Source of the DNA: Diplonema japonicum
Taxonomy: Eukaryota; Protista; Euglenozoa: Diplonemea
Length of the DNA stretch: 64,000 nucleotides
Direction: 5' to 3'
Assembly (NCBI GenBank): GCA_964019335.1
Contig: OZ025732.1
Coordinates: forward strand, 124,001 to 188,000
The notes beneath the pieces were generated by a model. The model was not told the origin of the DNA and ran no database searches. It was given only the letters and a program-made list of their open reading frames with translations. Below are positions 45,186 to 47,021 of this stretch, piece by piece; the stretch's first letter is position 1, and each line of letters opens with the position of its first letter. Made by a program: the position numbers and the translations under genes.

Positions 45186-47021
45186 TTGAACGCGGCTCTT
45201 AGGACGTCGCTACCGTTTGAACGGCAGAGTACAGTCTTCGTCGGCGCCCGCCAGGTACAGCTCACTCCTTGCATCCAGTCCGTCCATGAGAACATCGGAC
45301 TCGGGATGGATACGCCGATGGCTCCCGCCATGGGACACGCGACGCTTCAACCGGTGGTCAACGCCCAGAGAGACACGACGCTGACCCTGGAGCCGCCCGT
45401 GGCCCGAGCCGAGGCAGACGCTCCCCTAGACCCTCACCAGGCGGATGGTGGTTTAGAAATGATCGACCTCACGCAGGACTCCCCGGACAGACCCTCGCGC
45501 AAGAAGAAGCACGACGGCACTGCTTACGAGCACGAAAGCCGTCGTGGTAAGAGTTCCTCCACAGGCGATGGGGATCTTCTCATCCTGCGCGAGCAGTCAC
45601 AGGGTTTTGATCAGGAAGCCCTCAACCGAAGGGCCCTCCAGAGACGGATGGATCGATACCTCAGTCTCTTGGTCTACTTCCGGCGACACCCGGAGCTCTT
45701 GGACGAACACCAGCGTCAGCTCCTGTCGGTCGGTCCCCTCCCGATGCACCTGGACACCTCTCCACATCAACTGCTGCTCGAGGCCCGTGACACGGATAGA
45801 ACTGCCGACCAACAGGCAACCGTCGCCAACCAGGAACAGCTTCTTCTGATTGCGCACAAGGCGTTGCCTACCACCGAACGTCTTCGGTTGTCTCACGAAT
45901 GGCACTCGGGGCTGAACACCGCGGTACAGCAACAGTGGTGGTCGGAGTTCTTCGCCCAAGGCGGCTGGAAACACCCACTCTTCGGTTCCGAGGCCCCAAG
46001 AGGTGACGAGACTAGGACTCCAGGGAGGACCCCTCTCCTGCTCACCTACAACGGGCAGAGGAACAAACGCCCGGAACCCGAAGACGGCCCCGCCCTTCCC
46101 GCGGCCAAACGGGATCTCGCCGCGACGAGGCCGAACACCAGAGTCACTGGACTTGCCCTTAAGAGGCTCACCAGGGAAGCAGACGTCGACGGCCCTGAGG
46201 ACCTGGATGAGCTTCGACACCTGGGCTTCCTTTCCCAGGGCGAGGCCGTCTTTGACCTCAGCTGCATGTCCAGGGCTTGCACACACTTCCTGGGTGAGAC
46301 CCCCATGGTCACGGTCCCCCTCGACACACGCGTCGCGATCCCGTGTCTGCTGGTCTGTTATGACTCGACGTGGCTCTACGCTTCCCGCCAGGAACAGGGC
46401 TTTCGGTTGCAGACCCAAGGGTTCAAGGACAAGTCGTATCCGACTGTGGCAGCCCTACTCGCTGACTTCGTGGGGGCAGGGACCCTCTACTACAGCGAGT
46501 CACAGTGGTCGACTGTGCTGAACTCCTACAACTAGGAACTACTGGAGACGACCCTACGCAATGTAGGAGTGCCGGCCCGGCGTGCTACGAGGGCGATAGG
46601 CTATGCAGGGTCTCACAGACCTCGCACCCTATGATTTTAGTTTCCACCTTTTCCTTTTCCACTTCTTGTCTTTTAACTTCCCTTCTGCTTTCCCAACATG
46701 GTTTCCGTCCCGGGTATGACGTTAAACTGCGTCCGCCGACACATTTGGGTCAACATTCTCTGATGACCAAGCCGTCTTTTTCCGTTTCTTCTCCCCTTCT
46801 CTTTGTTATGTTATTTTCATTATTCTTTCTGGCGATAGACTGATACGGGCCATGGAAGCAACCTCTGCTTAATTCCTGGTACGTGGGAGGCTCCTCTTGA
46901 GGATGTCAGTCACCTTTTCCCTTTTTTACTCGACTCTCTGTTTTCGTATGCAGTATTTATTCTTTCCCACCCCTTTTTATCTATTTCTTCGCTTCTTCAT
47001 CCTAACTTAAAACCATTTCAG
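45186..47021 (+). mobile_element. Longest element A copy: 5'-truncated ORF (open to 46535) plus 486-nt structured 3'UTR ending CATTTCAG
   Basis: Probable TSD GTACC(T)TCCTT at 45176-45185 and 47022-47032; no RT motifs in the ORF. Confidence 0.9.
46553..46911 (+). ncRNA. Three structured cis-RNA modules of element A (46553-46632, 46707-46776, 46838-46911)
   Basis: GC-rich stem-loop islands separated by pyrimidine spacers; modules 1 and 3 covary with element B. Confidence 0.65.

What the first reader, a model, noticed from the sequence alone, without database searches (positions are those of the whole stretch)
46838..46911. Unassigned covarying pseudoknot-like RNA (module 3) shared by elements A and B
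Seen. A: GACUGAUA-CGGG-CCAUGGAA-GCA ACCUC UGC-UUAA-UUCCUGG-UACGUGG-GAGG-C-UCCU CUUG AGGA-UGUCAGUC. B (35155-35231): GACUGGAA-CGG-CCGCCCCGGG-GCA UCCUC UGC-UCAA-CCCGGCGG-ACGUGG-GAGG-C-CCUUC UUCG GAAGG-UGCCAGUC. The stems change sequence but keep pairing (A-U to G-C in the outer stem, two inner stems replaced). The joining strands are nearly invariant, and loop CCUC can pair with GAGG. This pattern is typical of ribozymes or protein-binding folds, but by eye it does not fit hammerhead, HDV, twister, pistol or hatchet. The 17131 copy starts exactly at its 5' boundary.
Basis: partly seen in the sequence, partly recalled or inferred. Interest (0 to 1): 0.8.

Follow-up and report, generated by a model that had tools for sequence, protein, structure and literature searches.

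The report
Uncatalogued RNA fold in retroposon tails
Two distantly related jumping-gene families of the marine protist Diplonema keep the same 75-base folded RNA shape, found in no RNA-family library searched, near their tail ends, where it likely serves as the docking site for the copying enzyme rather than as a self-cutting RNA.

Summary
The 74-77 nt motif occurs in 9 near-identical copies of element A and one full copy of element B. Both are 5'-truncated LINE-type retroposons, most likely of Diplonema japonicum, whose terminal ORF domains are only 28% identical. Between A and B, 9 of 9 changed stem pairs change on both sides and still pair, while 30 of 33 core and junction positions are identical. 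Between A subfamilies the module has 0 of 74 differences, against 83 of 556 around it. The three-way-junction fold is therefore well supported. The pseudoknot is not: it shows no covariation, its complementarity has about a 26% chance level, and a rival ACG/CGU helix fits better. The 17131 boundary is explained by a target-site duplication that overlaps the module's first three bases, and 8 of 10 copies read straight through the module, so efficient self-cleavage is unlikely. No Rfam family matches, and the viral, metagenome and prokaryote scans found no homologue. Best reading (0.5): a protein-docking structure 80-110 nt from a poly(A)-less retroposon 3' end, working like R2 or L2 tail structures. 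Rivals: RNA protection or translation element (0.27); weak new ribozyme (0.12).

The parts
46838..46911 (+). Module 3, type copy in element A: three-way junction. P1 46838-46843/46906-46911; P2a ACG/CGU 46845-46847/46882-46884; G.A; P2b 46849-46857/46873-46880; P3 46858-46860/46866-46868; loop 46861-46865; UUAA bulge 46869-46872; P4 46892-46895/46900-46903
   Evidence: plus strand favoured by G-U pairs and B's UUCG loop (sequence)
46862..46890 (+). Possible pseudoknot, loop CCUC 46862-46865 with GAGG 46887-46890 (unproven)
   Evidence: complementary in A and B, invariant, chance about 0.26
35155..35231 (+). Module 3 in element B, enclosed by a further long stem (about 35143-35154 with 35235-35247)
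   Evidence: 91 bits
45255..47021 (+). Element A, longest 5'-truncated copy: ORF remnant to stop 46535, then a 3' UTR with modules 1, 2 and 3 separated by U-rich linkers; ends CATTTCAG without poly(A)
46557..46594 (+). Module 1, also shared by A and B (B 35061-35098; 59051-59091), at or near the ORF stop
   Evidence: 89% identical between A and B
46698..46777 (+). Module 2, seen only in A; structured, with a variable distal hairpin
46946..47021 (+). Intron-like tail of A: GTATG 46946, CTAAC 47002, terminal CAG 47019-47021
   Evidence: sequence; D. japonicum splice consensus in PMC12621601
33772..35321 (+). Element B, 5'-truncated: ORF to stop 35070, module 1, hairpin, module 3, A-rich end at about 35310-35321 (both ends approximate)
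1263..1336 (+). Module 3 copy in the diverged A subfamily (85% identical overall, module identical)
7910..7983 (+). Module 3 copy with one change that turns a P1 U-A pair into U-G
17131..17204 (+). Module 3 copy at the 5' end of a truncated insertion; a 15-nt target-site duplication overlaps its first 3 bases
9961..10034 (+). Module 3 copy (A)
20643..20716 (+). Module 3 copy (A, inserted in an ankyrin-repeat gene)
37970..38043 (+). Module 3 copy (A); a second A copy inserted at its 3' boundary
39456..39529 (+). Module 3 copy (A)
48545..48618 (+). Module 3 copy (A)
59123..59161 (+). B-type module 3 lacking its 5' half (62-nt deletion)

Best explanation
Module 3 is a conserved three-way-junction RNA fold in the 3' untranslated tail of two LINE-type retroposon families, and it likely acts as the docking site that loads a reverse-transcriptase protein onto the element's RNA before target-primed copying. 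Shown: the fold (compensatory stems, near-invariant core), its position 110 nt (A) and about 80-90 nt (B) from the element end, purifying selection on it, and the retroposon hallmarks of A (5' truncations, target-site duplications, one fixed 3' end without poly(A), target NN(A/G)CC). Inferred: free-varying stems act as scaffold while the invariant junction, loop and bulge form a tertiary surface read by protein; lacking a poly(A) tail, these elements need such a structure for template choice, as stringent LINEs and R2 do; one shared or closely related RT would explain why A and B keep the same core and similar target bases. The pseudoknot may form but is not required by the data.
For: 9 of 9 changed pairs compensatory. 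Core 30 of 33 identical against 20 of 44 in P1, P2b and P4 with their bulge and loop, in elements whose ORF domains are 28% identical and whose flanks do not align. 0 of 74 differences against 83 of 556 between A subfamilies, Fisher P 2.7e-5. 0 of 38 listed substitutions in contigs of four other runs fall in the module, and differences resume at 46912. 14 of 15 A ends read CATTTCAG with no poly(A); 12 of 14 targets are NN(A/G)CC; exact duplications of 11-22 nt flank 4 of 12 copies tested. Precedent: vertebrate R2 protein binds a pseudoknot-hinge-stem at the end of the 3' UTR (PMC12180492, passages); L2 ORF2 binds the tail stem-loop (PMC4176376, abstract).
Against: No RT is linked to A or B: all copies are truncated, and their ORF domain has no RT-fused relative. 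Module 3 resembles none of 8 tails of RT-coding LINEs in the window. Those tails lie directly after the stop codon, a position matched by module 1 rather than module 3. In L2 LINEs loop recognition is family-specific (PMC4176376), whereas this core stays invariant across a deep split, which fits a host partner or catalysis equally well. Only two independent sequence families were available, and no binding or expression test of the UTR was possible.
Confidence: 0.5

Rival explanations
1. A host-facing element that protects, exports or helps translate a poly(A)-less element RNA. A's RNA end would be made by the spliceosome (cis or spliced-leader trans-splicing at the terminal CAG), leaving an unprotected 3' end that the stacked modules shield from exonucleases or use in place of a poly(A) tail.
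For: A ends exactly at CTAAC...CAG, with GTATG 76 nt upstream, matching the D. japonicum splice signals reported in PMC12621601; no poly(A) at any of 15 ends. A core invariant across deeply split elements suggests a conserved host partner. Diplonema matures polycistronic RNA by trans-splicing (PMC10161547, passages).
Against: B's end is A-rich and not clearly a splice acceptor, yet B has the module. No contig covered or joined across the tail, so splicing there is untested. No Rfam match.
Confidence: 0.27
2. A small self-cleaving (or ligating) ribozyme of a new class, weak or regulated, that trims or turns over element RNA.
For: An invariant junction inside variable stems is typical of catalytic RNAs (30 of 33). 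The topology recalls twister and a circularly permuted pistol (recalled, not from a call). Ribozymes are common in retroelements, including trypanosomatid L1Tc (PMC6765202, passages). One copy starts at the 5' boundary.
Against: 8 of 10 copies that reach the module extend through it; 1 starts at the boundary with 3-nt microhomology and 1 inside. Cleavage here would cut the ORF off from the priming end. The LINE ribozymes described in the passages read lie at the 5' end. No Rfam ribozyme hit at E<=10; recalled core words are absent.
Confidence: 0.12
3. A mimic or relic of the SRP RNA Alu domain that docks the element RNA on ribosomes.
For: The 3' half of the core resembles the eukaryotic Alu-domain sequence as I recall it (not from a call).
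Against: No SRP family hit in Rfam; no similarity above shuffles to an archaeal SRP RNA; the A/B substitutions are compensatory for P2b and would break the Alu-type hairpin.
Confidence: 0.04
4. No function: shared ancestry or chance pairing in a repeat.
For: Only two families; hand-set register; weak single-sequence folding scores.
Against: Null 5.6e-4 for compensation; P 2.7e-5 for conservation within A; alignment score 57 against a shuffled maximum of 5 while the flanks do not align.
Confidence: 0.03

Closest known systems
Pseudoknot-hinge-stem at the 3' end of vertebrate A-clade R2 3' UTRs (PMC12180492, passages read)
   Same: Compact fold near the 3' end of a non-LTR retroelement, conserved in structure despite sequence divergence; proposed role in template recognition.
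   Different: R2 is an rDNA-specific RLE element; its fold is at the very end and is a proven pseudoknot. Module 3 is a three-way junction 80-110 nt from the end, in dispersed elements, with an unproven pseudoknot and no identified protein partner.
Stringent-type LINE 3' tail stem-loops (ZfL2-1/2, UnaL2, plant L1; PMC4176376 abstract, PMC3747384 passages)
   Same: Structured 3' tail with compensatory stem changes and conserved loop or flank bases.
   Different: Those are simple hairpins with family-specific loops. Here a larger junction keeps a near-invariant core across families at 28% protein identity, and is one of two or three modules.
HDV-like ribozyme of trypanosomatid L1Tc/ingi (Pr77) (PMC6765202 passages; PMC3185411 listing only)
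   Same: Structured RNA in a euglenozoan LINE; 3-bp stem with a CC-containing loop.
   Different: That ribozyme is at the 5' end and needs crossing P1/P2 helices; module 3 is in the 3' UTR and its covarying helices are nested.
Twister and pistol ribozymes (features recalled)
   Same: Overall layout: a short hairpin whose loop could pair with a strand following the supporting stem, plus an A-rich bulge.
   Different: No Rfam hit; recalled core words absent; no second pseudoknot; no sign of cleavage in copy ends.

Membership tests
Stringent LINE 3' tail recognition element | Lies in the 3' UTR of a TPRT retroposon (5' truncations, target-site duplications, fixed 3' end) | tested here: met
   for A; B shows truncated copies with a common end region
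Stringent LINE 3' tail recognition element | Conserved structure with compensatory stem changes | tested here: met
   9 of 9 changed pairs; two families only
Stringent LINE 3' tail recognition element | Shared with, or belonging to, an autonomous RT-coding element | tested here: inconclusive
   no RT-fused relative of the A/B ORF; no similarity to 8 RT-LINE tails; no full-length A or B and no genome held
Stringent LINE 3' tail recognition element | Bound by ORF2/RT and needed for retrotransposition | not testable with these tools
   needs binding and retrotransposition assays
HDV-like ribozyme | Nested double pseudoknot with crossing P1 and P2 | tested here: not met
   covarying helices are nested; no Rfam hit at E<=10
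Hammerhead ribozyme | CUGANGA and GAAA core around three stems (recalled) | tested here: not met
   absent on both strands of A and B; no Rfam hit
Twister ribozyme | Two pseudoknots and conserved L4 sequence (recalled) | tested here: not met
   recalled L4 word absent; only one candidate pseudoknot; no Rfam hit
Pistol ribozyme (circularly permuted) | GCG after the pseudoknot strand and a GU cleavage dinucleotide between two stems (recalled) | tested here: not met
   GCG absent; the equivalent linker has no GU (sequence)
Any self-cleaving ribozyme | Site-specific self-cleavage | not testable with these tools
   indirect test negative: 8 of 10 copies read through; only contigs were laid, no raw RNA reads
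SRP Alu domain | Two hairpins with loop-loop pairing, homologous to the SRP RNA 5' end | tested here: not met
   no eukaryotic Alu domain was aligned directly

The most novel reading that the evidence does not exclude
A new class of small functional RNA: either a catalytic fold, or a nuclease-resistant fold that lets retroposons use a spliceosome-released, poly(A)-less RNA (ending at the element's own 3' splice site) as the copying template. That would be a retroposon life cycle coupled to trans-splicing that my literature searches did not find described.
Probability: 0.15. Interest if true: 0.85.

Novelty: new variant of a known kind. Interest (0 to 1): 0.5.

Why it matters
How non-LTR retroelements choose their own RNA is known in structural detail for few families. 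A compact fold whose core stays nearly invariant while the neighbouring protein diverges to 28% identity is unusual for a LINE tail, and it comes as a ready pair of natural variants for binding, cleavage and probing assays. If it is an RT dock, it is a portable template tag in an unstudied euglenozoan clade. If it cleaves or blocks nucleases, it is a new RNA class. The splice-site-like 3' end of A raises a testable link between retroposition and trans-splicing.

Tried and rejected
Rfam: whole window at gathering score 0 hits; E<=10 scans of both UTRs and both modules gave only chance hits or none. Pattern scans: viral contigs 0 hits strict and 11 relaxed; metagenomes 1 hit, inside a bacterial membrane-protein ORF; prokaryote genomes 120 loci from 54 of 64 parts of the collection. 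Scored with the covariance model, all 132 loci stayed at or below 18.5 bits against 91-102 for true copies. These patterns require near-identical cores, and no eukaryote genome collection could be searched, so absence elsewhere is not shown. RT query against viral contigs: none. No genome is held for the window. No RNA holder was listed on record, and both read-laying runs gave contigs only, so RNA ends and strand could not be read. The A/B ORF domain has no Pfam hit, no convincing Atlas family, a low-confidence model (pLDDT 50.7) and no fold above Z 4.7. Similarity of module 3 to module 1, module 2 or 8 LINE tails: none above shuffles; the LINE at 31475 against B module 1 was marginal (27 of 1000, one of 40 comparisons). 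SRP Alu idea rejected. Literature searches found no description of this motif; supplements were not read, and the repeat section of PMC10161547's additional file may bear on it.

Full report
Setting. The window is eukaryotic: an array of ubiquitin-ankyrin and ubiquitin-LRR genes full of non-LTR retroelement pieces. The RT ORF at 27678-31475 has its best relatives in EukProt transcriptomes and Diplonema papillatum, many with an APE-type endonuclease domain. Proteins 94-99% identical to window ORFs carry Diplonema japonicum accession labels, so the host is D. japonicum or a very close relative. No whole genome is held.

Observation. The motif is present as described. A covariance model from two A copies and B finds 9 full A copies, the B copy and two partial copies among 15 matches. 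In a hand-set register with 28 pairs, 19 are identical in A and B, 9 change on both sides and still pair (1 in P1, 6 in P2b, 2 in P4), and none breaks; drawing the changed letters at random keeps all nine in 5.6e-4 of trials. Single-sequence folding is weaker support: A z -1.17, and B's ensemble prefers other folds, the model lying at -29.3 kcal/mol. G-U pairs and B's UUCG loop point to the plus strand.

Selection. A and B share a C-terminal ORF domain at 28% identity over 173 aa. Their flanks around module 3 do not align, whereas the module scores 57 against a shuffled maximum of 5. Core and junction positions are identical at 30 of 33; P1, P2b and P4 with their bulge and loop at 20 of 44. 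Between two A subfamilies the module has 0 of 74 differences against 83 of 556 elsewhere (P 2.7e-5). In contigs from four other runs, 0 of 38 listed substitutions fall inside it, one contig diverges right after 46911 and another differs at 46912-46914; differences near contig ends are not listed and 6 indel rows were not shown. One diverged contig in run X14 was clipped at 46896. Its 30 loose letters keep GGGAGGC but change the P3 3' strand region and read ACCU for ACGU. This is ambiguous: a longer P3, a family without the pseudoknot, or a decayed copy.

Pseudoknot. CCUC/GAGG is complementary in both families but never varies, and a shuffled junction of the same composition offers such a 4-bp match about 26% of the time. 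An in-register 3-bp extension like ACG/CGU arises about 2% of the time. By helix geometry (inference) the two are hard to have together: with P2a formed only two bases link the stem base to GAGG, twelve pairs from the loop; with P2a open, six to seven bases could span it as in an H-type pseudoknot. The data do not decide, and a switch is possible.

The elements. A copies have 13 distinct 5' ends in my count. I left out 39633 (the remainder of the 37769 copy split by a second A), 57049 (same junction as 809), the 3'-broken pieces at 19108 and 42974, and the short tails ending at 43092 and 56691. Fourteen of 15 3' ends read CATTTCAG with no poly(A), 12 of 14 targets are NN(A/G)CC, and 4 of 12 copies tested have exact 11-22 nt duplications. 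This is target-primed retroposition. Some copies may be segmental duplicates of the gene array, but distinct 5' junctions mark distinct events. No RT could be tied to A or B: a profile of their ORF domain finds 2 proteins among 1.84 billion representatives, 290 and 378 aa long, both from D. japonicum transcript assemblies, and a search of longer proteins found none (weak). This shows that the ORF regions are transcribed; it does not show the UTR RNA.

Ribozyme test. Of 10 copies that reach the module from the 3' end, 8 run through it, 1 starts inside and 1 starts at its first base. That copy's 15-nt duplication overlaps the module's first three bases, ordinary junction microhomology; one such stop has a chance of about 0.09, or 0.42 for any of six module boundaries. 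Efficient cleavage would also sever the ORF from the priming end. Rfam gives nothing credible, the covarying helices are nested unlike HDV, and recalled hammerhead, twister and pistol words are absent. A weak or regulated activity is not excluded.

Mechanism. I commit to a protein-docking fold for template recognition (0.5). Precedents are the pseudoknot-hinge-stem bound by vertebrate R2 protein (PMC12180492, passages) and the tail stem-loops of stringent LINEs (PMC4176376, abstract; PMC3747384, passages). Against it, module 3 resembles none of 8 RT-LINE tails in the window, module 1 better matches their position at the stop codon, and a core invariant across such divergence could instead serve a host factor. 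The main rival (0.27) rests on A's last 76 nt, which read like a D. japonicum intron end (GTATG, CTAAC, CAG; PMC12621601, first part of Results): splicing could make the exact poly(A)-less end, and the modules could protect that RNA. B's end is not clearly an acceptor, and no contig covered A's tail.

Distribution and novelty. No homologue was found in viral, metagenomic or prokaryotic scans; these needed near-identical cores, and no eukaryote genomes could be searched. Ten literature searches found no description of the motif. Also seen: PMC6765202, PMC10161547 and PMC13188248 (passages) and PMC13725137 (abstract); no supplements were read. Earlier scan notes held no look-alike sequence and nothing on this window. 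Verdict: a real, uncatalogued fold of a known kind of element (structured retroposon 3' tail), a new variant, interest 0.5, with about a 15% chance of a new RNA class or life cycle.

Noticed in passing
window 46946-47021 and all A copies: A's last 76 nt look like a canonical intron (GTATG...CTAAC...CAG), and the element ends exactly at the CAG without poly(A); the minus-strand copy at 62530 starts one base before the GTATG. A different short element also ends ATCATTTCAG (10263, 36737, 40349, 49293, 50352).
   Followed up: partly
window 46557-46594, 35061-35098, 59051-59091: Module 1 is 89% identical between A and B, overlaps B's stop codon, and can be drawn as an H-type pseudoknot (loop GCCC with GGGC) with the same 1+4 loop layout as module 3; no sequence similarity to module 3 above shuffles.
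   Followed up: partly
window 3526-3575, 36096-36145, 24989-25038, 55165-55205: Another LINE family ends in a tail that fits an H-type pseudoknot right after the stop: 5-bp and 7-bp crossing stems; in the three copies tested 35 of 36 pairs hold, with changes on both sides in the 7-bp stem.
   Followed up: partly
window 57315-59161: A complete spliced-leader-like sequence (identity recalled) heads a 440-aa coiled-coil ORF whose frame continues past its TGA and joins B's last codons in frame; possibly an internally deleted B element or a B insertion into another LINE. A partial leader also lies at 53615-53630.
   Followed up: partly
window 26990-27290 and 7400-7760: SINE-like non-coding element with long-range complementarity and a T-run end; no Rfam match.
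   Followed up: partly
window 37769-39751: An A copy inserted into another A copy at the 3' boundary of module 3, where the element's own sequence matches the target consensus.
   Followed up: yes
window 33724-35070 and 45174-46535: Both ORFs have a low-complexity region with an IDLT motif (SUMO-interaction-like, recalled) and a basic patch before a lineage-restricted alpha/beta domain of unknown fold.
   Followed up: partly
window 13477-16143, 40429-41946, 43137-44507, 50432-51877: Tandem array of ubiquitin-ankyrin and ubiquitin-LRR genes and a calpain-ankyrin gene, repeatedly hit by retroposon insertions.
   Followed up: no
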